From positions 1-64,000 of IMG/VR virus record IMGVR_UViG_3300034524_000084: a stretch of 64,000 bases of DNA, one strand, 5' to 3'. The translations under genes and the position numbers were made by a program. This DNA is from a virus. Every line of letters starts with the position of its first letter. Positions within the stretch are counted from its first letter, which is position 1. Positions 8,820-55,028 of the stretch are shown one piece after another. The notes beneath the pieces were generated by a model. The model did no database searches and was not told the origin of the DNA. It worked only from the letters and a program-made list of their open reading frames with translations.

Positions 8820-8823
8820 AGAA

Positions 8824-10333: not shown

Positions 10334-10508
10334 TTTTCATAACAGGGCAGGGCTTATGCCTTGTCCTGTTATAACAGAAGTTTTAGGGTACTTATAAAGG
10401 GTTAAAATAAACACGGAGGATTTGTATAACCTACTTGTTAAAATTCAAAATAATTGGGAATATATAACAGCACAAGATTAAAAAAATAAAAAAAGAGGAG
10501 GTTAAATT

Positions 10509-10820: not shown

Positions 10821-11000
10821 ATTAAAAAAGGGAGGGTTTAAAATGTCTTTGAAAACTTACACAAGAAAAAGCAAGGATTTAATAGTAAGAATGGGAATAA
10901 ATAACGTAACAAAAAAGAAAAACTACAAAAAATTTTATAACAGATATAACAGAAGGAAAACGAGAGAAGAAATAAAAAATATAATGAAGGAGGTATTAGT

Positions 11001-11351
11001 ATGATAACTATAAAAGAAATAAAAACTAACGAATATCCCACAAGGTATGTAGCTTTCAAAAATCCCACCTATTTTGTGGAAAATATTAGTCCACAAAATA
11101 GAGGAGGATATGAATTTGCAGTTTATTATGAGCCTTACCAAAATAAGGAATATCCACATATAACAGATGGTATATATATCGAAATAGTGTCTTATCAAGG
11201 CAAAAAAATTTTATTGGATTGTCATTTAACAATACCTAACAAAAATAGGCAACAGAAAGGTTTTACAAAGCTATATAACAGCTATAAAGAAGCCAAACAA
11301 GAGGCTTTTAAGTGGCTTGAAGAAGCGCATAAATTTTTACAAGAAGTTTAA
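11001..11351 (+). CDS. Hypothetical protein
   Basis: AAGGAGGT RBS. Confidence 0.72.
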   Translation: MITIKEIKTNEYPTRYVAFKNPTYFVENISPQNRGGYEFAVYYEPYQNKEYPHITDGIYIEIVSYQGKKILLDCHLTIPNKNRQQKGFTKLYNSYKEAKQEAFKWLEEAHKFLQEV

Positions 11352-11431
11352 TAGATTTTTTAAAAAACACTTGACAAATGATAAAGATAATGATATAATT
11401 AAATTAGAAATTAAAAAAGGAGGAATTAAAA

Positions 11432-11947
11432 ATGGTAAAAGTAAGAATTCCAGGTTATAACAGACAGGAAGGCTACAGAGTCTTTGAGGTTTTAGATAGG
11501 GATGAGGTAGAAAAAATTTTGGACGAATTAGACCCCACAGACATTTGGGATATGACTTATGATGAAGGTGATGGTTATAGTTTTTCAGGAACGGCTTATA
11601 CTTACTTGGATGCAAGGGATGGGACATTACATACTGCTTGGTTACAGCAAAATACGACAGAACACCCATGGGATTCATTTTACAAAATTATCCTCTGTAG
11701 TATGGAAACAGGGGATAATTGGTGGGATTTTATGACACCAGATGAGCTATTAGACTGGGACGAACAAAGAGAGTTTTTAGATTATGATGGTACACTTGAA
11801 GAGTTTATTATGGAAAAGTATGGAGAAGAAGAATTGCAAAACAGAATAGAGAATGCAAAGGATTATTGGGCTTATGAGTTTAATTTTGATTGGGACTATA
11901 TAAAAGAACAGTTAGATTATCTTTACAGCTTTATTATAGAGGACTGA
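11432..11947 (+). CDS. Highly acidic hypothetical protein (possible DNA mimic or anti-defence protein)
   Basis: 171 aa, rich in D/E/W/Y; own promoter and terminator. Confidence 0.78.
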   Translation: MVKVRIPGYNRQEGYRVFEVLDRDEVEKILDELDPTDIWDMTYDEGDGYSFSGTAYTYLDARDGTLHTAWLQQNTTEHPWDSFYKIILCSMETGDNWWDFMTPDELLDWDEQREFLDYDGTLEEFIMEKYGEEELQNRIENAKDYWAYEFNFDWDYIKEQLDYLYSFIIED

Positions 11948-12107
11948 AAAGTCCTCTATTTTATTCATAACAGCAGATATATTTTAATTGCATAAATTAT
12001 TTAAACATTTTTAATTTAAAGACTTTAATTTTATTCTTGACAAATAAAATTAATAATGCTATAATTAGTATAGAATAAAAAACAAATTATTAAGGAGGAG
12101 ATTAAAA

Positions 12108-12304
12108 ATGTTAACAAAAAACAAAAAGAATTATTAATACAATTGGCTAATCTTATAGCTGAAATTCAGAATGAAATAGACGTGCAATATGAACAATATA
12201 ATGACATAAAATTTGCGGCAACTATAGAATACATTTTTAATAACAGCGATGATTTTTTAGTTATGCATAAAGTTATTGAAAGGATATTAAGAGAGGAGGA
12301 ATAA
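12108..12304 (+). pseudogene. Small gene frameshifted in an A6 tract
   Basis: Promoter, RBS and ATG; one extra A at 12116-12121 would give MLTKKQKELLIQLANL...ILREEE. Confidence 0.55.
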
Positions 12305-12308
12305 TGAA

Positions 12309-12509
12309 ATGGATAAAGAAATTATCAAAGCTTTTGAGGAATTTAAAAATTCAAGTATTAGTTTTGCCGAAGTAATTTTAAAGCACAATTTAGATAGAGA
12401 GAATAATTTTTGGGAAAACTATCCATTTAATAAAGATTTTGCAGAAATTGTAGATGATATAATTGATTGGTATAATACCATTTTTAACGAAAAGGAGGAG
12501 ATAAAATGA
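12309..12509 (+). CDS. Small acidic hypothetical protein
   Basis: GAGGAGG RBS; YPFNKDF motif. Confidence 0.7.
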   Translation: MDKEIIKAFEEFKNSSISFAEVILKHNLDRENNFWENYPFNKDFAEIVDDIIDWYNTIFNEKEEIK

Positions 12510-12619
12510 AAATTTTAAGTGTGTTAGGTGAATTATTTACTTTGATTTTAGGAATGTTTACAATTTATTTGTGGGTATGTATTTTAGCAGTTACATTAAA
12601 ATAATAAGGAGGTATTGGT

Positions 12620-13486
12620 ATGAAAATAACATTATATACTAATTATTTAGCTATTTCGGGAATAGACATAAAATATACTTTCGATTTAGATACATTAGAA
12701 GGGACAAAAGAATTTGTAGACTATCAGGAAGGAATAGTAAAAACCGATATTATAACAGAAAAAGACAAGGAAATAATCAAAGCTGAATTGGATAATATAG
12801 AATTTCAACACAAAATCCAAGAAGCAAAAGAGATGAATAAAAAGAGTATAAAATTATCATTTTATAAATCTCCTGAAAAACATTTTGAAGAAAAATTAGA
12901 AGGGGCTAAAGAAAAATTGAAAAAAGACCTGTTTAACATGGTTGCAGAAATTGAAAGGGAAGTCCAATATCCATTTCAGTATAATAATTTAATAATTATT
13001 AGAGATAAAATTAATAATAATAAATTTTTTAAAGACCATATAACAGTTGAGCAATTACAGTTATTAGAAAACAAAATAAAACAAGCTAAAAAGATTAAGG
13101 AAGAGTATGAATATAAACACGAGATTATATTTAGTGTTAAACAAGATAATAATAACAGTATATTTTGTTATATGGATAGTAGCGGTTATTATTATCTTGT
13201 AACACAAAGACAGTATAAAACTAAAGCTATAACAGAATTATTTAGACAATTACTTACACAAGAAGGTTATATAATAACAGACAATGAATTAACATTGCTT
13301 GATTATTATATATATAGAGAGACAAAGAAAAATATTGAAATAACAAGGATTGAATTAGAAAGAATGAGACAAGGCAAACAAATGCCATATATTATATATC
13401 AAGAAATAGGAGACAGAATGTTAAAGAAGATTTTTGACCCGTTATTGATAAACGAAAATTATAATGATATAATAACAGTAAATTAA
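12620..13486 (+). CDS. Hypothetical protein
   Basis: 288-aa ORF with RBS. Confidence 0.78.
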   Translation: MKITLYTNYLAISGIDIKYTFDLDTLEGTKEFVDYQEGIVKTDIITEKDKEIIKAELDNIEFQHKIQEAKEMNKKSIKLSFYKSPEKHFEEKLEGAKEKLKKDLFNMVAEIEREVQYPFQYNNLIIIRDKINNNKFFKDHITVEQLQLLENKIKQAKKIKEEYEYKHEIIFSVKQDNNNSIFCYMDSSGYYYLVTQRQYKTKAITELFRQLLTQEGYIITDNELTLLDYYIYRETKKNIEITRIELERMRQGKQMPYIIYQEIGDRMLKKIFDPLLINENYNDIITVN

Positions 13487-13493
13487 ATTTAAA

Positions 13494-13940
13494 ATGGAGG
13501 GGATTATTGTGGATAAAGATATTATTGAGTTATGGGAAAAGAATAAACACAAGCTAAGAGAATATTTTGCTACTCATGAACAAAGCCTTTATCCTGATTA
13601 CGAAAGTTTGGTTAAGTTAATTGTAAAATTTATACTTAATGATGAGGGTAGTCTTGAAGAATATGACGCAGACAATATAACAGTTATTACTAATGGGGAT
13701 TATCAAGGAATACTTATATTTATTATCCCTAAAGATATGTATTATCCTACAGAGGAAGACTTTTTGGTAACATATGTATATTATGGTAGTTGTGAAGCGT
13801 GTGATGTATTAAAAGGTATAAGATATGCTTATTATGATGATGCTTATTATGATGATGATAGTGTACCTAATCAAGAACAAATTGAAGATTATATGACTTT
13901 ATGTTTGCATATTATTCAACATATGAAAAAATTGTATTAA
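13494..13940 (+). CDS. Conserved-looking acidic phage protein
   Basis: GDYQG...YGSCxxCD motif; true start probably GTG at ~13509. Confidence 0.75.
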   Translation: MEGIIVDKDIIELWEKNKHKLREYFATHEQSLYPDYESLVKLIVKFILNDEGSLEEYDADNITVITNGDYQGILIFIIPKDMYYPTEEDFLVTYVYYGSCEACDVLKGIRYAYYDDAYYDDDSVPNQEQIEDYMTLCLHIIQHMKKLY

Positions 13941-14111
13941 GGAGGGATATTATGAATTTACAAGAATTAGAAAAAGAATTAAAAATTTGGGAGGATTATT
14001 TTAAAAAATCCTCCCAGTATTTGAAACCTGATGAGATAAGATATAGTTACAATTTCATGCAATATAACAAAATAAAAGAAATGATACAAAAACTTAAAGG
14101 AGAGGAAAACA

Positions 14112-14471
14112 ATGGAGCATAATAGTATAACAGCAAAAATGGTAGAGACTTTCCTGAAAAAGACATATAACAGAATTAAAAAGGATGCTTTGTATGTTAT
14201 GCAATATTATTCGCAATATCCAACACTTATAAATGATTATTACAAGTTATTGGGTATGTATTCTGACAGATTGTGGAATTTACATAGTTGGGTGAAGAAG
14301 GTTGACAATACCGCAAAGTTACAAGAGCTTTTAAGGTCTTACGATAGAGAATATAAAATATTTAAAAATATGGAAAAAGATGAGTTTTTATATAGTGATT
14401 TAGCTGACTGGTATGAAGATATTATTATTGGTTTAGAAAAAATTATGCAAAATTTTTCTAAAGAGTATTGA
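14112..14471 (+). CDS. Hypothetical protein
   Basis: GGAGAGG RBS. Confidence 0.7.
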   Translation: MEHNSITAKMVETFLKKTYNRIKKDALYVMQYYSQYPTLINDYYKLLGMYSDRLWNLHSWVKKVDNTAKLQELLRSYDREYKIFKNMEKDEFLYSDLADWYEDIIIGLEKIMQNFSKEY

Positions 14472-14715
14472 CATTATAAGAATAACGATTTATAATAATG
14501 CAAAAGGAGGAGATATTATGACTATAACAGCTTTCAATAAGTTTATGCAAGATTTAAAAAATTTTGTTAATAAAATGAATGAAAATAATATACCTAAAAA
14601 TGAGCAAAAAATTTTGTTAAAGCACTATATAACAATATATAACATTCAACATAACAGTAAAATAAATTTAAATAAAAATAATATTGATTTATTAGTAGGA
14701 TAAGGAGGATTAGTT

Positions 14716-14973
14716 ATGGAGGAATTAAAAAACTTGATTAATATGTTTAATAGCATATTAGACCAATTAATAGAATTACAAGAAATACAAAGAAAGATAA
14801 ATGAGGCTATAAGCTTTGAAAGTGAATTTGATGATAATGGGTATGAAATAGTTAAAGCTTTAGTGATAGATAAAAATAAAATAGAAAAACTTGTAAAAAT
14901 ACACATGACTTTTAGTGAAGATTATGAATATTTAGAAGATAAGATTAAAGAAATGCCAGTAATTTGGAGATAA
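14716..14973 (+). CDS. Hypothetical protein
   Basis: AAGGAGG RBS. Confidence 0.7.
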   Translation: MEELKNLINMFNSILDQLIELQEIQRKINEAISFESEFDDNGYEIVKALVIDKNKIEKLVKIHMTFSEDYEYLEDKIKEMPVIWR

Positions 14974-14985
14974 GGAGGAGATAAT

Positions 14986-16116
14986 ATGAGATTTAAAGTA
15001 AATAAAATAGAGTTAGAAAAAGCTTTAAATGTTGTTAAGGAGGGATTAGGAAAAACATATCCTATTTTGAAAAATGTACTTATAACAGTGGATAATGGAA
15101 AGATAATAAAATTTACTGCATTTAACTTAAAAGAAATGGTGAGTTATACCATTATTTCTAATATTTCTAAAGATTTAGAAGATGGAGCAGTTGTGGTTGA
15201 TTTAAAAGAGTTGTTAGATATAGTAAAAACTTTGCCTAATATAGAATTAGAAGCATTTATAGAAGATAACAGATTTATAATACAATATAATGATTCTCAA
15301 ATACAGATAGCTATTAATTTAAGTCCTGAAGAATATCCAATGAGCATTCATGTTGTTGATATAGATAATACATTTGATATAACAGTAGAAAATTTACAGA
15401 GTGCTATAGACAAAGTAATATTTGCAGTGGATAAGGCAGGAAAGTATACATCAAGACCAGTATTACAAGGTGTTTTATTTGATATAACAGATGATACGAT
15501 AAATATAGTGGGTTCAGACGGGTATAGGATGGCATTATATCAAACAAAAATAAATTGTAATATTGGGATAGATACCCAATTAGTTATACCTGCTAAATTA
15601 TTAGAAAAAATTTATAAAGTTATAAAGTTAACTAAATATAAAGGAGATATAGAGGTTTATTATAACAGCAAAAATATATCATTCTATACGGAAGAATTTG
15701 AGGTGAGCGGTTATTTGGTGGATGGAAAATATTTTGACTATAAGGCAGTATTGCCAAAAGAGTTTAATACTAAGCTAATAGTTAATAAAAAAGATTTTGA
15801 AAGTATGCTCAAAAGAATGAAGGCTATACCTTCAACAAAAGAAATGCCAATGGCAAAAATTATAACAGACAATAATAAAATTTACATACATTCCCACAAT
15901 GGAACTATGAGTTTAATTGAAAATATGCCAGCTAAAATAACAGGTGATAAAGTGGAGATAGCTTTTAGGGTGGCTTATATTCTTGATTATTTAAAGAAAG
16001 TTGGTACTAAAGAGGTGGTAATAAATATTGTGAATTCAAATTCACCAGTTATTTTAGAGGAAACTAATGACAATGAAAAATATCAATATTTAGTTATGCC
16101 AGTAGCTTTAAATTAA
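14986..16116 (+). CDS. dnaN: DNA polymerase III beta sliding clamp
   Basis: 376 aa; YPILKNVLI, RPVLQGVLF, GSDGYRMA, GKYFDYKAVLP, C-terminal YLVMPV. Confidence 0.93.
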   Translation: MRFKVNKIELEKALNVVKEGLGKTYPILKNVLITVDNGKIIKFTAFNLKEMVSYTIISNISKDLEDGAVVVDLKELLDIVKTLPNIELEAFIEDNRFIIQYNDSQIQIAINLSPEEYPMSIHVVDIDNTFDITVENLQSAIDKVIFAVDKAGKYTSRPVLQGVLFDITDDTINIVGSDGYRMALYQTKINCNIGIDTQLVIPAKLLEKIYKVIKLTKYKGDIEVYYNSKNISFYTEEFEVSGYLVDGKYFDYKAVLPKEFNTKLIVNKKDFESMLKRMKAIPSTKEMPMAKIITDNNKIYIHSHNGTMSLIENMPAKITGDKVEIAFRVAYILDYLKKVGTKEVVINIVNSNSPVILEETNDNEKYQYLVMPVALN

Positions 16117-16209
16117 CATAATACATATAACAGCAAAGGAGGTATGGTTATGAGTCCATGAAATATAAATAATAATAACAAATGAATGGCAATTTAAGGG
16201 GGACAACGA

Positions 16210-17334
16210 ATGTCAAATGAAATTGATATATTGAACAATGTTAAAAAACCGTTATTTTTACCCAATACACAATTGATGACTATAAAGATGGTTGCAGATT
16301 ATTATGAGGTTGATACTAAAACAATTGATAAAATTATAAATCGTCATTTTGATGAATTAACAGAAGATGGATATGAGGTTTATTCAAGGGCAGAATTAAT
16401 AAATCTTTGGATTCAAAAAAATGCCAATTTTAAAAATTTAAAAGGTAAAACAGTAGTTACTATTAACAATCAAAATATTATTATACCCAATAGAGGTTTA
16501 AGGCTTTTTACAGCACGAGCTTTATTACATATAGGTATTTTATTAAGGGATAGTATAATAGCCGAAAAAGTAAGACAAGAAATAATAAAATCAGGGAATT
16601 TAAAATTAATTAAGATGTTAGAAGATAATAATCCTAATATACATAAAAAACAGATGACACTTTATGAAATATTATTAAGTGTATATAAAGATATTTGTGT
16701 GATAGAGAAAGAAAGAAAAATTGGTGCTTATAGAGTGGATTATTTAATTAATAATAAAATTGTTATTGAATGTGATGAATTAGGACATAAAGATAGAAAT
16801 AAAAAATATGAAAAAGAAAGAGAAGCATATTTAAAATCGTTAGGATATATAGTAATTAGGTTTAATCCTGATGATAGTAATGCTAATGTTTTTGAATTGT
16901 TAAATAAAATTAATAAATATCTTTATGGAGGTGAATATTTGGTGTTATATAATATTTTGGAAAAAGTAAAAACACCAAAATTTATAAAAGGAACAAAATT
17001 AATGAATATTAAAATGTTGGCAGATTATTATAAAGTAAGTGTGGAAGACATACAAAAAATAATTAAAAATAATGATGAATTCAGTTATATAATAGATATT
17101 TCAGACAAGAAAAATATTTTATTTTCAGAAAAAGATATTTTAAAAATGGCAATGTTTTTAGATGGAGATGTGGCAATGAAAGTTAGAAATAAGATATTAG
17201 ATATATATGAGGCATCTAATAATCAAACAATAACAAAAGAAGACAGATTATTATTAAATATTATATATTCTGATACAGAAGAAAGCAAATTAAAAGCATT
17301 AAGAGAATATAAAAAATATAAAAATATGATATAA
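16210..17334 (+). CDS. DUF559/Vsr-like endonuclease flanked by duplicated DNA-binding-like domains
   Basis: YRVDYL...IECDELGH...ERE.YL...G..VIRF core; IKMVADYYEV and IKMLADYYKV repeats. Confidence 0.7.
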   Translation: MSNEIDILNNVKKPLFLPNTQLMTIKMVADYYEVDTKTIDKIINRHFDELTEDGYEVYSRAELINLWIQKNANFKNLKGKTVVTINNQNIIIPNRGLRLFTARALLHIGILLRDSIIAEKVRQEIIKSGNLKLIKMLEDNNPNIHKKQMTLYEILLSVYKDICVIEKERKIGAYRVDYLINNKIVIECDELGHKDRNKKYEKEREAYLKSLGYIVIRFNPDDSNANVFELLNKINKYLYGGEYLVLYNILEKVKTPKFIKGTKLMNIKMLADYYKVSVEDIQKIIKNNDEFSYIIDISDKKNILFSEKDILKMAMFLDGDVAMKVRNKILDIYEASNNQTITKEDRLLLNIIYSDTEESKLKALREYKKYKNMI

Positions 17335-17381
17335 ATTTTGAAAAATTGAAATAACAAATTGATATCAAGGAGGTAAAATGT

Positions 17382-18161
17382 ATGGAGGATGAAATTAAAT
17401 TAGAGTTAGTTAAAAGCGAAGAGTTTTTAGGTGTTAAGTGTGATTTTTATAGAGACCAAGATAATAATATATATATGACAAGGGAGCAAATTGGGCAAGC
17501 ATTACAGTATAGTAATCCTCTTATTTCGATAAGCAATATACATAATAGAAATAAAGAAAGATTAGATAAATTTTCAGTGGTAATCAAATTGATTAGTACT
17601 GATGGAAAACAATATGATACTACTTTATATACAGAACGTGGTATTTATGAAATATGCAGATTATCAAAACAGCCAATTGCAAATGATTTTTATGATTGGG
17701 TGTACGACCAAATAACATTAATTAGAAAGGCAGGGGGAGTAATTAATGATAAAGAGCTTTTTATTGAAACTTATTTTGGGGCATTAGATGAAGCCAGGAA
17801 AGAACTTGTGAGAGGTTTTATGACCCAAATTGAAGAACAACAGAAACGTATATTGGAAATGCAACCAAAAGTTGATAAATGGACAGCTTATATGGACAGC
17901 AAGGATAATATAACAGTTGAAAAGTTTGCAAAAGCACTTAACATTCCAAACATTGGGAGAAATAAAATGTTTGACATTTTAAGAAAACATAAGATTTTGA
18001 GAGATAACAATATGCCATATCAAGATTATATTAACAGAGGTTATTTTGATGTAATAATAAATGTTGTAAATGGTTTTAATGTAACACAAACACTTATAAC
18101 ACCAAAAGGGGCTGAGTGGTTGTACGACAAGCTCAAAGAATGGGGTTACATAACAGCTTAA
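17382..18161 (+). CDS. Phage antirepressor (BRO-N plus KilAC/ANT)
   Basis: MTREQIGQALQY...LYTERGIYEI; C-terminal QPKV...IGRNKMFDILR...PYQDYI.RGYF...TLITPKG. Confidence 0.88.
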   Translation: MEDEIKLELVKSEEFLGVKCDFYRDQDNNIYMTREQIGQALQYSNPLISISNIHNRNKERLDKFSVVIKLISTDGKQYDTTLYTERGIYEICRLSKQPIANDFYDWVYDQITLIRKAGGVINDKELFIETYFGALDEARKELVRGFMTQIEEQQKRILEMQPKVDKWTAYMDSKDNITVEKFAKALNIPNIGRNKMFDILRKHKILRDNNMPYQDYINRGYFDVIINVVNGFNVTQTLITPKGAEWLYDKLKEWGYITA

Positions 18162-18416
18162 TTTTAAGGGTTTTGCGGTTTTCCCATAAAAACCGCATTT
18201 TATAAAAAATATTGACAAATACAAATTATGATGATATAATATAACAGGAGGTGTTTAAATGGGCGATATAAAGGAATTCAAAGGACGTATAGATGTTAAA
18301 TATATTGAAGAAATTATTAATAATTTATCAGAGGAAGAAATTCTAAAACTTTTAAGCTTGCCAGATGAAGAAATTATGGAATTATTAGATGTTGATGATG
18401 AGGAGGGTGATGATAA

Positions 18417-18944
18417 ATGAGAGAATATTATGTTAGCACTAAAGAAGTTGAAGGCAAAAAGTTTTATTATATGGATTTTGGGTATGAAACTCACGGAAGA
18501 ACAAGTTTTAGGTTGTGGGTTTCTTCAAAATTAATAAAAACAGATGATAATAATAGAGAATATATAGAATTCCCTATAACAGCAAAGATAGTAGAGACCG
18601 AAAAAGGAACTACAATTTTGAAACCACTACAAGAAGGTGAACAATATTATGTATTTGACTTATATCAACCATGTGGTTATCGAGGTAGTGCTTATATAAC
18701 AGTGTTAGAACCAGAGCCTTTAAATGTTAAAGTTTACAGGTACTACCATTCACCATTAGGAAATTTAGGAGAAGATTATGGTATGTTAATTATGGTAAAT
18801 TCTGATAAGGTAAAAATTAAATGGGAAAGAACAGGACGTACTTACGGAGCACCCAAAGAAGGATACAGAGTGTATTATGCCGATGGGAAAACGGAAGAAA
18901 TAGAACATATTGATTTAGAGGATTTGGAAGAGATAGAAAGTTAA
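18417..18944 (+). CDS. Hypothetical protein
   Basis: 175-aa ORF with RBS and downstream terminator. Confidence 0.75.
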   Translation: MREYYVSTKEVEGKKFYYMDFGYETHGRTSFRLWVSSKLIKTDDNNREYIEFPITAKIVETEKGTTILKPLQEGEQYYVFDLYQPCGYRGSAYITVLEPEPLNVKVYRYYHSPLGNLGEDYGMLIMVNSDKVKIKWERTGRTYGAPKEGYRVYYADGKTEEIEHIDLEDLEEIES

Positions 18945-21410: not shown

Positions 21411-22358
21411 ATGGAATTATATAACCAAGAATTAAAAGAGAGATTTTTAGAACAATATTCAGAATCAACAAGATTAACGTATAGAAATATTTTTAAAAAG
21501 ACAGCACCAAAGGAGAATGAATTACAAAAAGATTTATATCAATTTAATTTAGAAGAATTAGATGACTTATTGTATTCGCTTGGCAGTACTTCTGCGCAGT
21601 ATATAGCAACTGTTTTAGCGGTATTGTCAAAATATGTTGATTTTTGCATACAAGAAGGATATATAGGTAATCCAGCGGGAATTAATTATGTAAGGTTAAT
21701 TAATCCTACTTTAGAAAATTTAAAAAAATATGAACATGGAATCGACAAAAAATATAGGTATATTGATAGAGAAGAATTACAACAAATAATTAATATGTGT
21801 GTAAATGCTCAAGATGCAGTTATATTTGCATTGTTATTTGAGGGAGTAATGGGGGAAAATTTAGAGGAATTAATTAATCTAAGAGTAGATGATTGTAATT
21901 TTATGGATAATATTCTTACTTTAAGGCGTAACGATGGGACAAAAAGGAGAATATCAGTACAACAAGATACTATGAAACTTATTAATAAAGCAATTAATCA
22001 AGTTGAATATTATAGAGTATCGGACATAGCTAATGGAGTGTTCTTATTACAAAGGACACCTTATGTGTTGAGACCTATAGTAAGCGAGAAAGTTCCAACT
22101 GAAAAAGTAAGTCATCAAATAATCAGGAATAGATTAAAAAAAATAGCAGAAATGTATGGAAATCCATACCTAAATCCTAAAAATATTTTTAGGAGTGGTA
22201 TGATAGATTATATAAGAAGATATATGAAGAAATATGATATAAAATCTTTCAAAGATTTAAAGTATAGCGATATGGCAAACATTTTACGGAGATTTGGAAT
22301 AGAGGCTACGACACAAAATGTTTATTTATATCGTACCAGATTGAGGGAATATGTTTAG
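21411..22358 (+). CDS. Tyrosine-recombinase-fold regulator, SPbeta YopR/MrpR-like
   Basis: YNQELKERFL...E..LQKDLYQFN...NAQDAVIFALLFEG...EELINL...NIFRSGMI; canonical R and HxxR catalytic motifs absent. Confidence 0.75.
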   Translation: MELYNQELKERFLEQYSESTRLTYRNIFKKTAPKENELQKDLYQFNLEELDDLLYSLGSTSAQYIATVLAVLSKYVDFCIQEGYIGNPAGINYVRLINPTLENLKKYEHGIDKKYRYIDREELQQIINMCVNAQDAVIFALLFEGVMGENLEELINLRVDDCNFMDNILTLRRNDGTKRRISVQQDTMKLINKAINQVEYYRVSDIANGVFLLQRTPYVLRPIVSEKVPTEKVSHQIIRNRLKKIAEMYGNPYLNPKNIFRSGMIDYIRRYMKKYDIKSFKDLKYSDMANILRRFGIEATTQNVYLYRTRLREYV

Positions 22359-25200: not shown

Positions 25201-25458
25201 ATGGATAAAGGTAAACTAGTTTTTACTTTTTATGGTGTTCTAACAGGTACAAAATATAAGATTTACCCAACAGAAGGTAGATATGAGATTATTTATGAAG
25301 AATTACCCAAAGAAATGGTCGAGGCAATGGTAAGTGGGCATATAGAACGATTGGGTGTGGCTTTTAGAACTTTTTATTATACTCTTATGTATAATTTAGG
25401 AGTTTTTGCAATGATAGATAAAATATCGAAGAAAATTAATGAAAAAGCGAGGCGATAA
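25201..25458 (+). CDS. Hypothetical protein
   Basis: ORF in operon. Confidence 0.55.
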   Translation: MDKGKLVFTFYGVLTGTKYKIYPTEGRYEIIYEELPKEMVEAMVSGHIERLGVAFRTFYYTLMYNLGVFAMIDKISKKINEKARR

Positions 25459-26473
25459 GGTGGTAATTACAGAAACACAATTTAAAACGATACAAACAAA
25501 TAAAATACCTACTAAAATAAAACTTTTCACACATACTGATTTAGATGGAGTTGGGTGTGCTATATTAGCAAATATAGTAAGTGTGGTTAATAATATTGAT
25601 GTAGAAATAGAATTTTGTGATTATAATAATATAAATAACAAAGTTAATGATTTTTTGAAGGTGATTAACAATTATGACAAAGTATTTATAACAGATATAT
25701 CGGTAAATGAAGAGGTGACAGAAAAGCTTGATAAATATAATGATAAAGTGGTTTTATTAGATCATCACAAGACAGCAAACTTTTTAAATAAGTATAAGTG
25801 GGCGCATGTATATGAAACTTTAGTTATTGATTTAGAAATTGATGTGTATATAAAAGTATGTGGAGCGTATTTATTTTTAGATTATTTAATTGCTTCAGAT
25901 TATCTAAAAAATTTTAAATTTTTAGATACTTTAACTGACTTTGTGGAAGTAATCCGAGAATATGATGTTTGGGAATGGATAGAAATTGATAATATTTTAG
26001 CAAAACAGTTGAATGATTTATTGTATATTTTAGGTAGAGAGAGATTTATTGAGGAATTCACTGAGCAACTGTTAAATGGGAAATTTGTAATAAATGACAA
26101 GTTAAATTTTTTATTGGAATTAGACCAAGAAAAGATTGATGATTATATAGAAAACAAAAATAAAAATTTGATTGTTAGAGATATAAAAGGATATAATGTT
26201 GGCATTGTATTTGCAGAAAGATACATATCAGAATTAGGAAGTAGATTAATGGAACTACATCCCGAATTAGATTTTGTTGTAATTATAAATATAGACAAGA
26301 CAATTAGCTATAGGACAAACAAAAATAATATTGATTTAGGCGAATTTGCTAAAATATATGGTGGTGGGGGGCACCCACAAGCAGCAGGAAGTCCTGTAAG
26401 TGATGAGGTAAAGAATAAAATTATTGATATGTTGTTCGAGAAAAAATTTACAAAGGGTATTGACAAAATATAA
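25439..26473 (+). CDS. DHH/DHHA1 phosphoesterase
   Basis: HTDLDG, ITD, LDHH, GGGGHPQAAG. Confidence 0.9.
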   Translation: MKKRGDKVVITETQFKTIQTNKIPTKIKLFTHTDLDGVGCAILANIVSVVNNIDVEIEFCDYNNINNKVNDFLKVINNYDKVFITDISVNEEVTEKLDKYNDKVVLLDHHKTANFLNKYKWAHVYETLVIDLEIDVYIKVCGAYLFLDYLIASDYLKNFKFLDTLTDFVEVIREYDVWEWIEIDNILAKQLNDLLYILGRERFIEEFTEQLLNGKFVINDKLNFLLELDQEKIDDYIENKNKNLIVRDIKGYNVGIVFAERYISELGSRLMELHPELDFVVIINIDKTISYRTNKNNIDLGEFAKIYGGGGHPQAAGSPVSDEVKNKIIDMLFEKKFTKGIDKI

Positions 26474-26558
26474 ATTTAGTGTTAAGATAAAATTACAGAT
26501 AAAAATAATAAAAATTTTTCAAAAAAGGTATTGACAAAATAAAAATATGTGGTATAAT
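26460..26558 (+). promoter_or_regulatory. Tandem sigmaA promoters ahead of the RNA repeat array
   Basis: TTGACA-N17-TAAGAT at 26460 and TTGACA-N16-TATAAT (extended TG) at 26531. Confidence 0.7.
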
Positions 26559-26578
26559 TAAAATGTAAGGTAAAGATA

Positions 26579-26858
26579 AAGATACGTACAGCGACGTTTC
26601 TTAATAGAGATTGTGGGTCTCTAAGTATGTGTATCTTGTTTGAATAAACAGGAAAGGCGCATACAGCAAATGTTCTTGGGGGCAAGCCGATGCTTGCGTT
26701 TATGAGCGTCTTGATACAATGAAAGGCACTTACAGCAAATAGTACAAGGATAAGCCTGTTAAGCTTATGTCCTCAGTGCCTTGCTAACTTACGATAAAGT
26801 AACTCTAAAGTTAGTTTCGATACTAACAGCATAATAATAATGATTAAAAGTATCGAGG
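26579..26858 (+). ncRNA. Array of four structured RNA units with ACAGC motif; two carry tRNA anticodon stem-loops (His GTG, Asn GTT)
   Basis: Closing stems AAGATAC/GTATCTT, AAGGCGC/GCGTCTT, AAGGCACT/AGTGCCTT and TCGATACT/AGTATCGA, each followed by ACAGC. Inner hairpins TAGAGA-TTGTGGG-TCTCTA and ATAAGC-CTGTTAA-GCTTAT. Confidence 0.75.
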
Positions 26859-26867
26859 AGGGATATT

Positions 26868-28340
26868 ATGAGTGAAAAATTTATAAAAGCATTAGAGAGA
26901 GAGAATAATTATACTACTACAGAAAATGGAGCAATAGCACTAAAAAGCACAAATAGTACTCTGTTGGATTTGTTCGGTGAAATAGGGGCTCTAAGGGGAA
27001 GGACGGAGAATGAAATAGAAGCAAAATTTATAAAAGCATTCGCAGAAGATAAATTATTGGCAACTAAAATGGCATTTTACGCAAGAGATATTAGAGGTGG
27101 TCTTGGTGAAAGAAGAGTGTTTAGAGTAATTTTAAAATACTTAGCTAATGTTCGTCCAGAAATAGTGATAAAAAACCTGTATAATATACCTTTTTATGGT
27201 AGATGGGATGACTTATATACCCTAATAGGTACCCCAGTAGAAAAAAGCATGTGGGAATTCATAAAAAGACAGTTGCAAGAAGACTTAGAAAGCATGGCTA
27301 ATAATAAACCAGTAAGCTTGTTAGGGAAATGGTTAAAGTCAGTAAACACAAGCTCACAAGAATCAAGAGTATTAGGTAAATTAACCGCCAAAAATTTAGG
27401 ATTAAGTGAAAAACAATATAGAAAAATATTGTCAGAGCTTAGGAAATATATAGATGTAGTAGAAAGAAAGATGACGGCTAACGAATGGGATAAAATAAAT
27501 TACTCATCTGTTCCTTCAAGAGCTATGACGATATATAGAAATGCTTTCTATAGACATGACCCTAACAGATTTGATGAGTTTATTGAAAATGTTAAGCAGG
27601 GAAAAGAAAAAATAAATTCATCTACCTTATATCCTTACGATATATTAGAAAGAATGTGTGATGGAGGGTTTGATTTAGCATATATAAAGTATGACCCAGT
27701 ATTAGAAGAACAATGGAAAGCACTACCGAACTATATAGATGGCGAACATAATGTATTGGTAATGGCAGACACTTCAGGTAGTATGATAGGTAGACCAATG
27801 GCAACATCGGTAGGATTAGCGATATACTTTGCTGAAAGGAATAAAGGTATATGGCGCAACAAATTTATGACGTTCTCTTCTGAACCTTCATTTGTAAAAA
27901 TAAAAGGTGATACATTATATGAAAAATTGAAGTGTGTGCCAGAAATTGTAGGAAATACAAATTTAGAAGCTGCATTAAAATTAATTTTAGATACTGCTAT
28001 TAAGCATAAATTAACACAAGAAGATATACCAAAATCATTAATCATTATATCAGATATGCAATTTGATGATGCTACTAAGGATTATGGTAAAATGACATTT
28101 TACGATACAATGAAAGAAATATATAACAGAGCAGGATATGAAATACCAAATATAGTATTTTGGCAAGTAGATAGTAGAAGAGATTCATTCCAAGTCACAT
28201 CAGAATATAAAGGAGTACAATTAGCAAGTGGACAATCGCCAAGCGTATTTAAATCGATACTTAATACAATAGGGAAAACCCCACATGAAGCAATGTTAGA
28301 AATATTGAATAATCCAAGATATGATTATGTGGTAGTCTAA
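26868..28340 (+). CDS. TROVE/Ro60-like helical plus vWA protein (DUF2828-like)
   Basis: TENGA, RDIRGGLGERR, YGRWDDL, KWLKS, YSSVPSRAM, LYPYDI, MIDAS DTSGSM, TNL, IISDMQFD, IVFW. Confidence 0.85.
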   Translation: MSEKFIKALERENNYTTTENGAIALKSTNSTLLDLFGEIGALRGRTENEIEAKFIKAFAEDKLLATKMAFYARDIRGGLGERRVFRVILKYLANVRPEIVIKNLYNIPFYGRWDDLYTLIGTPVEKSMWEFIKRQLQEDLESMANNKPVSLLGKWLKSVNTSSQESRVLGKLTAKNLGLSEKQYRKILSELRKYIDVVERKMTANEWDKINYSSVPSRAMTIYRNAFYRHDPNRFDEFIENVKQGKEKINSSTLYPYDILERMCDGGFDLAYIKYDPVLEEQWKALPNYIDGEHNVLVMADTSGSMIGRPMATSVGLAIYFAERNKGIWRNKFMTFSSEPSFVKIKGDTLYEKLKCVPEIVGNTNLEAALKLILDTAIKHKLTQEDIPKSLIIISDMQFDDATKDYGKMTFYDTMKEIYNRAGYEIPNIVFWQVDSRRDSFQVTSEYKGVQLASGQSPSVFKSILNTIGKTPHEAMLEILNNPRYDYVVV

Positions 28341-28347
28341 GTTGTAA

Positions 28348-28402
28348 AAGGCGCTTGCAGCAACTACTCGGGGGTTCTTGAAAAACCTTGCTGGGCGCCT
28401 TG
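28348..28402 (+). ncRNA. Fifth RNA unit, with Ser(TGA) anticodon stem-loop
   Basis: AAGGCGCT/GGCGCCTT closing stem, TGCAGCAA motif, GGGGTT-CTTGAAA-AACCTT hairpin. Confidence 0.75.
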
Positions 28403-28660
28403 TTTTTATCAAAAATAAGGAGGGGGATAACATGAAAGGGAGAGTAATTATTGATTTGAGTGATTTTAATGAACTTGTAACCAATAATGAGGAACTTAGC
28501 TGGATAATATCGGTTATATCGGGAGCAACATCAATAGTACCACAAGATAAAACATTTAAGTTTGTAGTTGACACAAATAAACTCAAAAAATTAATACAAA
28601 AATATGGATTATACTACAAATCTACAGAAGTAGATGATAACGAAAAATTAGAAGTAGAAT

Positions 28661-29137
28661 TTGTATGATTGGAGTGGTTATATGATAACAAAAGAAATAT
28701 TAGAAAAATTAAGGAAAGAACAATTTGAATATATGAGAGCTAAATATCCAATGGGTGATTTACCTAAATCTATGTTTATTGGTGGAAAATTTAATTTTAA
28801 TAATTGGAATGGTGCAGATGACTTAATTAGATGTTATTTTTATGATGTTGAGATGTCTGATAAGTGGCAAATAGGGTATGAATTAAGAGATGGTTATTTG
28901 ATTGTGAATTTATTTTATCATTGGGATCAAGCTTTTGCTATTGTAATTCATTATTGGCTTAATAATTCAGAAGAAATGTTTGAGGAAATACATGATATAT
29001 ACTATTTTTCATGGTATAAGCATCATGGACATACAGATATAGCTATTAAAAATGGGCATATCATGACGGAGGATGAATATATTGAATTGCTTAATTTGAT
29101 AGAAAAAACTGGATATGAATTTTGGATAGGCAAATAA
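28661..29137 (+). CDS. Hypothetical protein
   Basis: Aromatic-rich ORF with YYFSWYK.HG.T motif. Confidence 0.7.
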   Translation: MYDWSGYMITKEILEKLRKEQFEYMRAKYPMGDLPKSMFIGGKFNFNNWNGADDLIRCYFYDVEMSDKWQIGYELRDGYLIVNLFYHWDQAFAIVIHYWLNNSEEMFEEIHDIYYFSWYKHHGHTDIAIKNGHIMTEDEYIELLNLIEKTGYEFWIGK

Positions 29138-29335
29138 GGGGCGATGAAGAATGACAAAAATAGAAGAATATTTAACAATGAAGAAAAAGACAAAAAAATA
29201 GAAGAGATATTTGAGAAAGCAAAAAAGCTCTTGGATGAAGAAAATGCGTAAAAATTGGTGAATATAATTTAGAAGATGTAGAAAAAGTTTTAGGGAAATT
29301 ATTTGAATGTTTGTATACTGAAGGTGTAAATTATT

Positions 29336-53584: not shown

Positions 53585-53824
53585 ATGGCAAAAGAAGAAT
53601 ACTGGGTATGTGATAGATGTGGGAAAAAAGAACGTAAATCAATGGATGAGTTTGATTTTATAGATAATACATGGTGGGAAATTAATTTAGGAAGGGCTGG
53701 ATATGGAAGTAAATTAGATGGATGTGAGGTCAAATTCACACTGTGTGATGACTGTCTATTTGAAATCTTTAATTCACTTGCAAAACAAGCTCAAAAAAGA
53801 ATTTTGGATACTTCTATTTTTTAA
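53585..53824 (+). CDS. Small Cys-containing hypothetical protein
   Basis: CDRC...GYGSKLDG...LCDDC. Confidence 0.7.
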   Translation: MAKEEYWVCDRCGKKERKSMDEFDFIDNTWWEINLGRAGYGSKLDGCEVKFTLCDDCLFEIFNSLAKQAQKRILDTSIF

Positions 53825-53837
53825 GGGGGAAATACTG

Positions 53838-55028
53838 ATGTTGAGAGTAAAAGGAGAATACAATGAAGCAATAATTTATACTGACCACGTAGAAGAAGAA
53901 GCCTTAAAACAAATTGCAGAATTATGTAATCAAGAAGCGTTTAAAGATTCAAAAATTCGCATTATGCCTGACGTACACTCGGGAGTAGGTTGTACTATAG
54001 GGACGACAATGACGATTAAAGATAAAGTTATTCCTAATCTTGTTGGTGTAGATATTGGCTGTGGAATGGAAGTAGCTGTTATACAAGAAAAAGATATAAA
54101 TTTAGAAAAGCTTGATAGAATTATACATGATTTTATTCCAGCAGGTCAAAACATAAGAGAGAAAGAACATCATTACATTGAAATGGTTAATTTAGATGAG
54201 TTACGATGCAAAAACAATATAAATATCGATAGGGCAAGATTAAGTATAGGTACGCTTGGGGGAGGAAATCACTTTATTGAGGTTGACAAAGATCCTGAGG
54301 ATAATATTTATATTGTAGTTCATTCAGGCAGTCGTTATTTAGGAAAACAAGTTGCTGAATATTATCAAGAAACTGCTTATAAAGAACTAACATCATTAAG
54401 AGAAGAAAAACAAAAAATTATAGAAAAATTAAAAGCTGAAGGAAGACAAAGAGAAATTCAAAGTAAATTAGAAAAATTAAAAACTCCTAAAATTAAAAAA
54501 GACCTTGCGTACTTAAAAGGAAAATCCTTTGACGACTATATCCATGACATGAAAATTGTCCAACTATATGCTGTCTACAATAGAAAGGCTATTATAGATG
54601 AAATAATAAATAAAATGAACCTGACTGTAGTAGACCAATTCACAACAATACATAACTATATAGATTTAGAAAATATGATACTAAGAAAAGGTGCTATTTC
54701 TGCACAAAAAGGCGAAAGAGTAATAATACCAATAAACATGCGTGATGGAAGTATTATCGCTATCGGAAAAGGTAATCCTGATTGGAATTATTCTGCCCCT
54801 CATGGAGCAGGGAGAATTATGAGTAGAAACAAAGCTAAAGAATTATTAAAACTTAATGATTTTGTAGAATCAATGAAAGGGGTATATTCAACCACAATAA
54901 ATGAATACACAATTGATGAAGCTCCAATGGCTTACAAACCTATAGAAGAAATAATAAATAATATTCAAGAAACAGTATATATCGACAAAATTATAAAACC
55001 TATTTACAATTTTAAAGCAATAGAATAG
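53838..55028 (+). CDS. rtcB: RtcB RNA 3'-phosphate/5'-OH ligase
   Basis: MPDVH, VGVDIGCG, GTLGGGNHFIE, HSGSR, HNY, RKGA, SAPHGAGR, DEAP.AYK; start set at the ATG after the GGGGG RBS. Confidence 0.95.
   Translation: MLRVKGEYNEAIIYTDHVEEEALKQIAELCNQEAFKDSKIRIMPDVHSGVGCTIGTTMTIKDKVIPNLVGVDIGCGMEVAVIQEKDINLEKLDRIIHDFIPAGQNIREKEHHYIEMVNLDELRCKNNINIDRARLSIGTLGGGNHFIEVDKDPEDNIYIVVHSGSRYLGKQVAEYYQETAYKELTSLREEKQKIIEKLKAEGRQREIQSKLEKLKTPKIKKDLAYLKGKSFDDYIHDMKIVQLYAVYNRKAIIDEIINKMNLTVVDQFTTIHNYIDLENMILRKGAISAQKGERVIIPINMRDGSIIAIGKGNPDWNYSAPHGAGRIMSRNKAKELLKLNDFVESMKGVYSTTINEYTIDEAPMAYKPIEEIINNIQETVYIDKIIKPIYNFKAIE

What the first reader, a model, noticed from the sequence alone, without database searches (positions are those of the whole stretch)
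26579..28402. Ro60/TROVE-like vWA protein flanked by small RNAs displaying different tRNA anticodon loops
Seen: five units share a covarying 7-8-bp closing stem (mostly AAGRYRC...GYGYCTT) followed by an unpaired (A/G)CAGC motif. They lie at 26579-26637, 26654-26712, 26723-26782, 26817-26856 and 28348-28401, bracketing the DUF2828-like gene. Three contain a 6-bp stem with a 7-nt loop that reads as an anticodon loop: TTGTGGG (His GTG), CTGTTAA (Asn GTT) and CTTGAAA (Ser TGA), each with U33 and purine-37. There is no D arm, T arm or CCA, so they are not tRNAs. Unit 2 has a CGAT loop that does not fit the pattern. Known: bacterial Ro60 (Rsr) binds Y RNAs, some of them tRNA mimics, and is often encoded with RtcB; several anti-phage systems (PrrC, RloC, PARIS) cut anticodon loops. 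Inference: a constant protein-binding scaffold with interchangeable anticodon payloads, acting as decoys for host anticodon nucleases or as substrates for tRNA repair. I do not recognise this as a described system.
Basis: partly seen in the sequence, partly recalled or inferred. Interest (0 to 1): 0.93.

Follow-up and report, generated by a model that had tools for sequence, protein, structure and literature searches.

The report
Ro60-like phage protein with anticodon-mimic RNAs
A 98-kb phage with no tRNA genes encodes a ring protein predicted to fold like the RNA-binding autoantigen Ro60, flanked by five small RNAs that share one conserved "handle"; three of them display look-alikes of tRNA anticodon loops, which points to an undescribed Y-RNA-like particle involved in the phage-host fight over tRNAs.

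Summary
All five units are at the stated coordinates. Each has a 7-bp closing helix, then two bases and ACAGCAA (or a near variant), a variable insert, the 3' strand and a conserved G.

A covariance model built from 14 units finds the same handle beside DUF2828 genes, always on the gene's strand. This holds in phages of Bacillus, Staphylococcus, Listeria, Enterococcus, Campylobacter, Fusobacterium, Mycobacterium and E. coli. In 40 units the helix is always paired and all 7 pairs covary. No Rfam family or tRNA finder matches the window's units.

The protein model (pLDDT 88) matches only Ro60 structures over its full length.

The anticodon-loop reading holds statistically. Of 64 units, 14-15 carry a 7-nt hairpin loop identical to a real phage tRNA anticodon loop, against 0.1-0.5 in shuffles. 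Two close relatives keep the stems but swap loops (His/Asn, Asn/Ser).

The phage has no tRNA genes but does encode RtcB.

Function (decoy, bait or tether) is untested, and no expression data could be obtained. I found no paper on this. This scan has already noted the same system on other DNA, in more than 100 genomes.

The parts
26531..26558 (+). Consensus sigma-70 promoter (TTGACA, 16 nt with TG, TATAAT) about 20 nt before unit 1. It probably drives the RNA array and the gene.
   Evidence: The only 12/12 match in 25300-29300. The same promoter-then-unit arrangement is present in Bacillus phage Thrax4 (L003) and in the relatives L100 and L117.
26579..26638 (+). Unit 1: handle (helix 26579-26585 / 26631-26637, ACAGCGA 26588-26594, G 26638) plus a 6-bp hairpin 26605-26623 with the 7-nt loop UUGUGGG (His GUG type).
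   Evidence: R1 47.9 bits. Hairpin. The same stem carries the Asn loop in relative L117.
26654..26713 (+). Unit 2: handle (26654-26660 / 26706-26712, ACAGCAA 26663-26669) plus hairpin 26682-26697 with a CGAU tetraloop (not anticodon-like).
   Evidence: R1 48.2 bits. In L100 the unit at this position has a 6-bp hairpin with loop UUGAGGA (Leu GAG type) instead.
26723..26783 (+). Unit 3: handle (26723-26729 / 26776-26782, ACAGCAA 26732-26738) plus a 6-bp hairpin 26750-26768 with loop CUGUUAA, identical to tRNA-Asn anticodon loops.
   Evidence: R1 41.5 bits. The loop is in the reference set of real phage tRNA loops. L100 keeps the stem with loop UUGCUAA (Ser GCU).
26816..26858 (+). Unit 4: handle without a structured payload (helix 26816-26823 / 26850-26857, ACAGCAU 26826-26832). 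Its 3' strand overlaps the Shine-Dalgarno GAGGAGGG 26855-26862 of the DUF2828 gene. It is a candidate autoregulatory operator.
   Evidence: Best non-seed R1 hit in the window (16 bits, E 0.26). Conserved in L100 (R1 26.1 bits) and seen by eye at the same place in L117 (no R1 hit there), with an A-U to G-U change in the helix. In L011 the Shine-Dalgarno also lies in the 3' strand of a handle helix.
26868..28340 (+). Gene for a 490-aa DUF2828 + DUF7788/vWA protein, predicted to be a Ro60-like ring protein with an intact MIDAS motif.
   Evidence: Pfam DUF2828 142 bits and DUF7788 134 bits. PHROG 850 'RNA-binding protein'. AF2 pLDDT 88. The Foldseek matches at E <= 0.001 are all Ro60 structures. 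D301, S303 and S305 are invariant in 25 homologues.
28348..28407 (+). Unit 5: handle (28348-28354 / 28395-28401, GCAGCAA 28357-28363, G 28402) plus a 6-bp hairpin 28371-28389 with loop CUUGAAA, identical to tRNA-Ser(UGA) loops. The U run 28403-28407 suggests it also ends the transcript.
   Evidence: R1 38.1 bits. The loop is in the reference set. The unit and its loop are conserved after the gene in L100 and L117.
53718..55028 (+). RtcB RNA ligase gene, 25 kb away. It is a possible functional partner (repair of cut tRNAs), not part of the locus.
   Evidence: PF01139 217.8 bits.

Best explanation
The DUF2828 protein is a phage version of the Ro60 ring protein, and the five units are its partner RNAs, a new kind of Y RNA.

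Each RNA has a constant 'handle': a 7-bp helix formed by its two ends, with the single-stranded ACAGCAA leaving the helix and a G after the 3' strand. I infer that the handle is the protein-binding site. Each RNA also has a variable 'payload'. In this phage three payloads are hairpins that copy the anticodon loops of tRNA-His, tRNA-Asn and tRNA-Ser(UGA).

The array and the gene are transcribed from one strong promoter. Unit 4 lets free protein cover its own ribosome-binding site, and unit 5 ends the transcript.

The particle offers anticodon-loop look-alikes to host factors that read anticodon loops. The most likely such factors are anticodon nucleases of anti-phage defence, so the RNAs would act as protein-stabilised decoys or baits. 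This would spare the host tRNAs that this tRNA-less phage depends on, with the phage's RtcB ligase repairing what still gets cut.

Shown by computation: the fold, the conserved covarying handle, its linkage to the gene, and the anticodon-loop mimicry with loop swapping.

Inferred: binding, processing, autoregulation and the decoy role.
For: Fold:
- AF2 model pLDDT 88, pTM 0.86.
- All 12 listed Foldseek matches at E <= 0.001 are Ro60/Rsr/phage Ro60, aligned over the full length at TM 0.43-0.56. The next matches are isolated vWA domains.
- The MIDAS motif is invariant.

Handle:
- 40 units, 100% paired, 7 of 7 pairs with changes on both sides, covariation 0.88 against 0.09-0.15 for slid partners.
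- CAGC is invariant.

Linkage:
- Nearly all R1 hits lie on the gene's strand within about 3 kb of it, in 30 or more loci. One hit of 44 and two of 48 are on the minus strand, all at E > 0.5.
- In five whole cultivated phage genomes (603 kb) all 15 hits lie next to the gene. In the window's own genome hits occur only at this locus.
- Searching from the RNA side, 12 of 23 IMG/VR pattern matches that have a closing helix have a DUF2828 gene in the fetched piece, against 2 of 59 without a helix.

Anticodon mimicry:
- 14-15 of 64 units have a hairpin whose 7-nt loop equals a real tRNA anticodon loop, against a shuffle mean of 0.13-0.47 (0 of 300 shuffles reach it).
- 19-22 fit YU-NNN-R-N, against 1.7-4.3 in shuffles.
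- The same loops recur in unrelated phages: Asn in L001; Ile in L010 and a Campylobacter phage; Lys in Bacillus phage FADO, L104 and L107.
- Relatives at 97% and 81% protein identity keep the stems but exchange loops.

Context:
- The phage has no tRNA genes but has RtcB.
- In other phages the gene abuts tRNA arrays and units sit in tRNA-sized slots.
- A related LeBron unit matches the tRNA-like part of YrlA.

Literature:
- Isolated anticodon stem-loops can be cut by a defence nuclease (Cas13b6; PMC13692257).
- PARIS targets Lys, Thr and Asn tRNAs (PMC12409363).
- A Ro60-like protein of the Felixounavirus Bas63, encoded next to its tRNAs, counters the Ppl defence (PMC11482910).
Against: - There is no evidence of transcription, processing or binding.
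- About 60% of units in the family have no anticodon-like hairpin, including U2 and U4 here. Anticodon display therefore cannot be the whole function.
- In the one example I compared from memory (a Bacillus phage Lys unit against B. subtilis tRNA-Lys) the stem differs from the cognate tRNA stem. The RNAs would also lack the tRNA body and probably the modifications that some anticodon nucleases need.
- Bas63 gp130 countered Ppl when expressed alone (PMC11482910), so the protein may act without these RNAs. That gp130 is a DUF2828 orthologue is my inference from its description and from the synteny in wV8.
- RtcB is 25 kb away, not in the operon.
- The units in the statistics are not phylogenetically independent. 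The window, L100 and L117 are one lineage, although at least nine lineages contribute.
Confidence: 0.55

Rival explanations
1. It is a Y-RNA-like particle, but the payloads are tethers or gates, as in the classical Ro60 model. The hairpins would recruit the ring to a host RNA-handling enzyme (exoribonuclease, RNase P/Z, RtcB, a tRNA-modifying enzyme or an aminoacyl-tRNA synthetase), or regulate access to the ring's cavity. The aim would be to degrade, repair or reprogramme RNAs, not to decoy nucleases.
For: - Ro60 fold.
- Y RNAs tether Ro60 to PNPase in Deinococcus, and the Ro60 of Thermus phage phiLo forms a similar complex (PMC4201824, PMC12135203).
- Family members carry tRNA 'top halves' in YrlA topology.
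- RtcB is present in this phage and lies near the gene in a Listeria phage.
- Many payloads are not anticodon-like.
Against: - It does not by itself explain why loops copy specific anticodon loops so exactly, or why they are exchanged between close relatives.
- No candidate partner has been identified.
Confidence: 0.22
2. The hairpins are sponges for anticodon-loop-specific tRNA modification enzymes or anticodon-binding domains of synthetases (t6A, i6A and queuosine pathways). They would change host decoding during infection.
For: - The commonest mimics have U36-A37 (Asn, Ile, Lys, Ser GCU, Thr: t6A class), A36-A37-A38 (Ser UGA: i6A class) or U33-G34-U35 (His, Asn: queuosine class) (the class assignments are from my own knowledge).
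- Several such enzymes are known to accept stem-loop substrates.
Against: - The set of anticodons is mixed and fits no single enzyme class.
- No benefit to a phage has been demonstrated.
- The link with RtcB and tRNA arrays points to damage rather than modification.
Confidence: 0.08
3. The units are only cis-acting mRNA elements of the DUF2828 operon (leader stabilisers, a translational operator and a terminator). They are not stand-alone RNAs, and the anticodon-like loops are incidental.
For: - U4 overlaps the Shine-Dalgarno, and U5 is a GC-rich helix followed by a U run.
- A unit lies within 40 nt of the start codon in many lineages.
Against: - Units also lie among tRNA genes, far from the start codon and downstream of the gene, and some are embedded in tRNA-like RNAs.
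- The enrichment of anticodon loops is far above chance.
- Up to six units per locus is more than regulation would need.
Confidence: 0.08
4. The units are decaying remnants of tRNA genes (an acceptor-like 7-bp helix plus an anticodon arm) with no present function.
For: - The 7-bp terminal helix and anticodon arm resemble a tRNA stripped of its D and T arms.
- Relatives place units inside tRNA arrays.
Against: - An invariant non-tRNA motif (ACAGCAA) and a fully covarying helix are kept across phages of five bacterial phyla.
- Loops keep U33 and R37 while being exchanged.
- The array has a perfect promoter.
Confidence: 0.03

Closest known systems
Ro60 (Rsr) with Y RNAs of bacteria and mycobacteriophages: YrlA/YrlB (Rfam RF02553; Chen et al. 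2014, PMC4201824)
   Same: - A ring protein of HEAT repeats plus a vWA domain.
- Small RNAs encoded within a few kb on the same strand.
- Modular RNAs with a terminal helix as the protein-binding part and a variable, often tRNA-like, effector part.
- Association with RtcB.
   Different: - The protein is in Pfam DUF2828/DUF7788, not TROVE, and is recognisable as Ro60 only by fold.
- The handle is a 7-bp helix plus ACAGCAA, not GNCGAAN0-1G.
- The window's RNAs are 54-63 nt, lack the T/D/acceptor mimic and instead display anticodon-loop mimics.
- There are several units per locus.
Thermus phage phiLo Ro60 with Yrl1/Yrl2 (PMC12135203; PDB 9KOP, 9L5Y)
   Same: - A phage-encoded Ro60 with partner RNAs just upstream of the gene.
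- It is the best structural match to the window's protein.
- It has been proposed to hijack host RNA enzymes in counter-defence.
   Different: - phiLo Ro60 is a canonical TROVE protein, and its RNAs carry the CGAA motif in a stem-bulge-stem.
- No anticodon-like payloads are reported.
Phage tRNAs as counter-defence against tRNA-cutting immunity (T5 tRNA-Lys/Thr/Asn against PARIS, PMC12409363 and PMC11464382; tRNA-Tyr against Retron-Eco7, PMC11555353)
   Same: - The phage supplies RNA copies of the part of tRNA that defence nucleases attack.
- The anticodons involved overlap (Lys, Asn, Thr).
- In many phages the DUF2828 gene sits in the tRNA cluster.
   Different: - Those are complete, functional, nuclease-resistant tRNAs that replace the host's.
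- The units here cannot decode. They have no cloverleaf and no acceptor end, and they keep the canonical loop sequence, so they would act as decoys, not replacements.
Bas63 gp130, a Ro60-like counter of the Ppl defence (PhageMaP preprint, PMC11482910)
   Same: - A Ro60-like protein encoded directly upstream of the tRNA cluster of a Felixounavirus.
- The Felixounavirus wV8 has a DUF2828 homologue in exactly that position, with a handle unit between two tRNAs.
- The preprint gives experimental evidence for an anti-defence role.
   Different: - Orthology with the window's protein is inferred, not tested here.
- gp130 worked without added phage RNAs.
- The authors guessed that some annotated tRNAs are Y RNAs but did not describe the handle RNAs.

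Membership tests
Ro60 / TROVE-vWA ring proteins | Full-length fold: alpha-helical HEAT-repeat ring closed by a vWA domain | tested here: met
   AF2 pLDDT 88. All 12 listed Foldseek matches at E <= 0.001 are Ro60 structures, aligned over 517-568 columns with TM 0.43-0.56 and probability 1.00.
Ro60 / TROVE-vWA ring proteins | Sequence membership in Pfam TROVE, or a sequence hit to solved Ro60 | tested here: not met
   Pfam gives DUF2828, DUF7788 and a weak VWA_2, with no TROVE at E <= 0.01. phmmer against PDB sequences finds no Ro60 at E <= 10.
Ro60 / TROVE-vWA ring proteins | MIDAS motif (DxSxS...T...D) in the vWA domain | tested here: met
   D301, S303, S305 and D396 are invariant in 25 homologues.
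Ro60 / TROVE-vWA ring proteins | Binds Y RNA through a terminal helix, and threads RNA 3' ends through the cavity | not testable with these tools
   Needs EMSA, RIP or a solved structure.
YrlA Y RNA (Rfam RF02553) | Reaches the family's gathering score | tested here: not met
   The window has no YrlA match; its only Rfam matches at E up to 10 are two weak minus-strand hits to other families. A related LeBron unit scores 39.8 bits against a gathering score of 69.
YrlA Y RNA (Rfam RF02553) | GNCGAAN0-1G motif in the 5' strand of the terminal helix | tested here: not met
   The units have NN-ACAGCAA after the helix. In the LeBron alignment the model's CGAA positions are not matched.
YrlA Y RNA (Rfam RF02553) | Permuted tRNA-like domain (T arm, closed acceptor stem, D arm) | tested here: not met
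   Absent from the five window units. Present in larger units of relatives.
YrlA Y RNA (Rfam RF02553) | Encoded within about 4 kb of the Ro60 gene on the same strand | tested here: met
tRNA | Cloverleaf with D and T arms and an acceptor end, as recognised by tRNA finders | tested here: not met
   ARAGORN finds 0 genes in the window and in the whole genome. There is no Rfam tRNA hit.
Intrinsic terminator (unit 5 only) | GC-rich hairpin directly followed by a U run | tested here: inconclusive
   By eye the helix 28348-28401 is followed by five U at 28403-28407. The scan tool lists no terminator because the enclosed loop exceeds its 8-nt limit.

The most novel reading that the evidence does not exclude
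Phages use a Ro60-like ring protein as a carrier for a set of exchangeable RNA baits. Each bait copies the anticodon loop, or the upper half, of a particular tRNA. The anticodon nucleases of host immunity are then soaked up or misdirected. This would be a programmable RNA-decoy counter-defence whose specificity is rewritten simply by swapping a 7-nt loop.
Probability: 0.3. Interest if true: 0.95.

Novelty: new variant of a known kind. Interest (0 to 1): 0.85.

Why it matters
- It would give a partner RNA and a likely role to a protein family of unknown function. tblastn finds homologues in 701 phage records, including Felix O1-like, Listeria, Staphylococcus, Campylobacter and cluster L mycobacteriophages, several of which are used in therapy or biocontrol.
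- It would add a second, sequence-unrelated handle to the Ro60/Y-RNA theme. The function of bacterial Y RNAs is still an open question, and units that display single, recognisable tRNA parts make it testable.
- If the decoy reading holds, it is a new kind of counter-defence against the growing list of tRNA-cutting immune systems.

Tried and rejected
- Rfam at gathering score found nothing; at E <= 10 only two weak minus-strand matches (E 1.9 and 5.1) that look like chance.
- ARAGORN found no tRNA or tmRNA.
- Folding energies of single units are not distinctive.
- A sequence search of the protein against PDB found nothing useful. Only the fold search was informative.
- A simple helix-plus-motif script gives many false hits in this AT-rich DNA, so I replaced it with a covariance model.
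- The genome-contig scan with the protein returned no relatives.
- The 41 giant-virus-type DUF2828 loci (27-30% identity) gave no R1 hit on the gene strand.
- The excess of ACAGCAA on the + strand of the window (25 against 9.4 expected) mostly belongs to a separate early-region motif, TATAACAG, and not to further units.
- Reading the units as armless tRNAs was considered and dropped. U2 and U4 have no anticodon arm, and the conserved ACAGCAA has no tRNA counterpart.
Full report
**What is there.**

The window is the first 64 kb of a 97,780-bp IMG/VR phage record with direct terminal repeats. It has 30% G+C and no tRNA or tmRNA gene. The closest named homologue of the gene in question comes from Paraclostridium (89% identity), and parts of the gene resemble Fusobacterium phages.

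At 26868-28340 (+) lies a 490-aa protein with Pfam DUF2828 and DUF7788/vWA. It belongs to PHROG 850, 'RNA-binding protein'.

A perfect sigma-70 promoter at 26531-26558 is the only 12/12 match in 4 kb. Four small units follow it before the start codon, and a fifth comes right after the stop codon.

Every unit has the same plan:
- a 7-nt 5' strand;
- two bases, then ACAGCAA (ACAGCGA in U1, ACAGCAU in U4, GCAGCAA in U5);
- a variable insert;
- the complementary 3' strand and a G.

Exact coordinates are in 'parts'.

**Is it more than chance?**

By eye, the same plan appeared upstream of DUF2828 homologues that share only 44-50% protein identity: two human-gut phage scaffolds and Bacillus phage Thrax4.

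I built a covariance model (R1) from 14 units, specifying only the 7-bp closing helix.
- With filters off it finds, in the window, the four seed units plus U4 as the best non-seed hit. It finds nothing else in the whole genome.
- In 24 related loci it gave 44 hits at E <= 1, and 43 were on the gene's strand. Hits occurred in phages of Staphylococcus, Bacillus, Listeria, Enterococcus, Campylobacter, Fusobacterium, Mycobacterium and E. coli.
- In 19 metagenome loci it gave 48 hits, 46 of them on the gene's strand.
- In five complete cultivated phage genomes (603 kb) all 15 hits lie within about 3 kb of the DUF2828 gene, on its strand.
- In 41 loci of the distant giant-virus-type homologues (300 kb) there is no hit on the gene's strand.

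In the alignment of 40 units (26 not in the seed) the helix is paired in 100% of cells, against 28-51% when the partner is slid. All seven pairs change on both sides. These rows were fitted to the model, which favours pairing. CAGC is invariant, ACAGCAA is kept in 37-40 of 40, and the trailing G in 39 of 40.

I also searched from the RNA side. I scanned IMG/VR for one 14-base version of the handle. Among matches that also have a closing helix, 12 of 23 have a DUF2828 gene in the fetched piece. Among chance-like matches without a helix, 2 of 59 do.

This is a real, conserved, structured RNA family tied to this protein family.

**The protein.**

Sequence searches do not connect it to TROVE or to solved Ro60. 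An AlphaFold model built with 25 homologues is confident (pLDDT 88, pTM 0.86). All 12 listed Foldseek matches at E <= 0.001 in the PDB are Ro60: Thermus phage phiLo, Xenopus, human, and Deinococcus Rsr. They align over the full length. The next matches are isolated vWA domains. The MIDAS residues are invariant. Calling the protein 'Ro60/TROVE-like vWA protein' is therefore justified by fold.

**The anticodon-loop claim.**

U1, U3 and U5 each contain a 6-bp hairpin with a 7-nt loop: UUGUGGG, CUGUUAA and CUUGAAA.

As a reference I collected the anticodon loops of 120 real tRNAs found by ARAGORN in the fetched phage loci, which gave 65 distinct 7-mers. Among 64 distinct units:
- 14-15 have a hairpin whose 7-nt loop is identical to one of these reference loops. 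The mean in dinucleotide shuffles of the inserts is 0.13-0.47, and 0 of 300 shuffles reach the observed number.
- 19-22 fit YU-NNN-R-N, against 1.7-4.3 in shuffles.

The same loops recur in unrelated phages:
- Asn in L001;
- Ile (CUGAUAA) in L010 and in a Campylobacter phage;
- Lys (CUUUUAA) in Bacillus phage FADO, L104 and L107;
- Thr-like in mycobacteriophage LeBron.

In a census of 108 units, 41 are anticodon-like. Asn GUU and Ser UGA are the most frequent (7 each), followed by Ile, Lys and Ser GCU (3 each).

The most telling evidence comes from two close relatives, L100 (97% protein identity) and L117 (81%):
- The U1 stem (AGAGA) carries the His loop here but the Asn loop in L117.
- The U3 stem (AUAAGC) carries Asn here, Ser GCU (UUGCUAA) in L100, and His on a similar stem in L117.
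- U5 keeps Ser UGA in all three.
- At the position where the window has the CGAU tetraloop (U2), L100 has a Leu-GAG-type loop.

The loops change identity while keeping U33, a purine at position 37 and the 7-nt size. This is what selection for 'being an anticodon loop' predicts.

Caveat: the units are not phylogenetically independent, although at least nine lineages contribute.

**The wider family.**

In many phages the DUF2828 gene abuts the tRNA cluster, and units fill tRNA-sized slots between tRNAs.

Larger units carry a T arm, a closed acceptor stem and a D arm in permuted order. The LeBron example matches Rfam YrlA at 39.8 bits, below the gathering score of 69. It does so through the tRNA-like part only, not through YrlA's CGAA motif.

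In L001 and L002 the handle occurs in circularly permuted form: a hairpin followed by ACAGCAA, inserted in the anticodon arm of tRNA-like genes.

The family therefore presents either the upper half or the anticodon arm of tRNA on a common handle. The window's phage has only the small, anticodon-arm type.

**How it most likely works.**

By analogy with Ro60 and Y RNA (PMC4201824, PMC12135203), the handle is the protein-binding module and the insert is the effector module. This is inferred.
- U4 has no structured payload, and its 3' strand overlaps the Shine-Dalgarno. The same is true in L011, and a unit lies within 40 nt of the start codon in many lineages. This suggests that free protein represses its own translation (inferred).
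- U5's GC-rich helix followed by a U run probably ends the transcript (inferred).

For the payloads, the best-fitting role is as bait or decoy for factors that read anticodon loops.
- tRNA-cutting defences are widespread.
- At least one of them (Cas13b6) cuts isolated anticodon stem-loops (PMC13692257).
- PARIS targets Lys, Thr and Asn tRNAs (PMC12409363).
- The phage has no tRNA genes of its own with which to replace cut host tRNAs.
- It does encode RtcB, at 53718-55028. From my own knowledge, RtcB reseals the kind of RNA ends left by metal-independent anticodon nucleases.
- A Ro60-like protein of the Felixounavirus Bas63, encoded just upstream of its tRNAs, counters the Ppl defence experimentally (PMC11482910). 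The Felixounavirus wV8 has a DUF2828 homologue in that position.

Against the decoy reading:
- There is no evidence for expression or binding.
- Most units in the family are not anticodon-like.
- In the one example I compared from memory, the stem does not copy the cognate tRNA stem.
- gp130 acted without added RNAs.

The rivals (tether or gate for RNA enzymes, sponge for modification enzymes, purely cis-acting elements, tRNA remnants) are set out separately.

**Known or new.**

Rfam 15 has no family for these RNAs. Six full-text searches found no description of RNAs associated with DUF2828, of the ACAGCAA handle, or of anticodon-loop decoy RNAs in phages. The library lacks most subscription journals, so this is not proof of absence.

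The closest known systems are Ro60 with YrlA/YrlB and phiLo Ro60 with Yrl1/2. The window's units fail the YrlA membership tests: score, CGAA motif and tRNA-like domain. I class the finding as a new variant of a known kind.

This scan has already noted the same system on other DNA: 165 notes in at least 123 genomes, with follow-ups that reached the same reading. The family is thus not first seen in this window. What this window adds:
- a tRNA-less phage that carries only the minimal anticodon-arm units;
- direct evidence of loop swapping between close relatives;
- the operator-like unit (U4) and the terminator-like unit (U5).

**Limits.**

Closer relatives could therefore not be placed on contigs, and no read evidence was obtained.

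Noticed in passing
window 53718-55028 (+): RtcB RNA ligase gene (PF01139, 217.8 bits) in a phage that has no tRNA genes. It is flanked by dUTPase, a ribonucleotide reductase fragment and a RuvC-like resolvase.
   Followed up: partly
window 25439-26473 (+): A DHH/DHHA1 phosphoesterase (NrnA/exopolyphosphatase-like; PHROG 'DHH phosphoesterase') lies immediately upstream of the promoter of the RNA array. It could degrade short RNAs or nucleotide signals. Any link to the Ro60-like locus is untested.
   Followed up: partly
window about 6600-18600 (+), e.g. 8555, 9836, 14127, 15662, 16127: The 7-mer ATAACAG is strongly strand-biased (60 copies on + against 8 on - in the genome). About nine early-region copies extend to TATAACAGCAAA and so contain the handle's ACAGCAA, but without a closing helix. 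This explains the excess of ACAGCAA in the window. Its meaning is unknown.
   Followed up: partly
L001 1194-1720 and L002 1570-1790: tRNA-like genes whose anticodon arm is interrupted by a hairpin with a conserved CAUGUUCGUG loop followed by ACAGCAA. This is a circularly permuted form of the handle. ARAGORN reads the interruptions as 27-56-nt 'introns'.
   Followed up: partly
L100 2150-2270: In the 97%-identical relative, the first unit of the array appears rearranged. The 3' strand of a U1-like helix is present without its 5' partner, and a handle 5' part follows without a clear 3' partner. This suggests frequent recombination among units.
   Followed up: no
window 28346-28403 (-): The reverse strand of unit 5 also scores weakly with the model (10.9 bits). 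In U5, GCAGCAA can pair with a downstream UUGCUG, giving an alternative long hairpin that would hide the handle motif.
   Followed up: no
window 21411-22358 (+) and 56180-57307 (+): Two integrase-family genes lie in one phage genome (PHROG 5830, and Pfam Phage_integrase).
   Followed up: no
L086 4400-4760 (mycobacteriophage LeBron, after gp53): Three handle units lie in the 360-nt gap after the 'Ro-like RNA binding protein' gene. The middle one (about 4517-4643) is a YrlA-like permuted tRNA mimic. The first one has a Thr-like loop, AUGGUAA. gp53 is reported as toxic when overexpressed in M. smegmatis (PMC13148394).
   Followed up: partly
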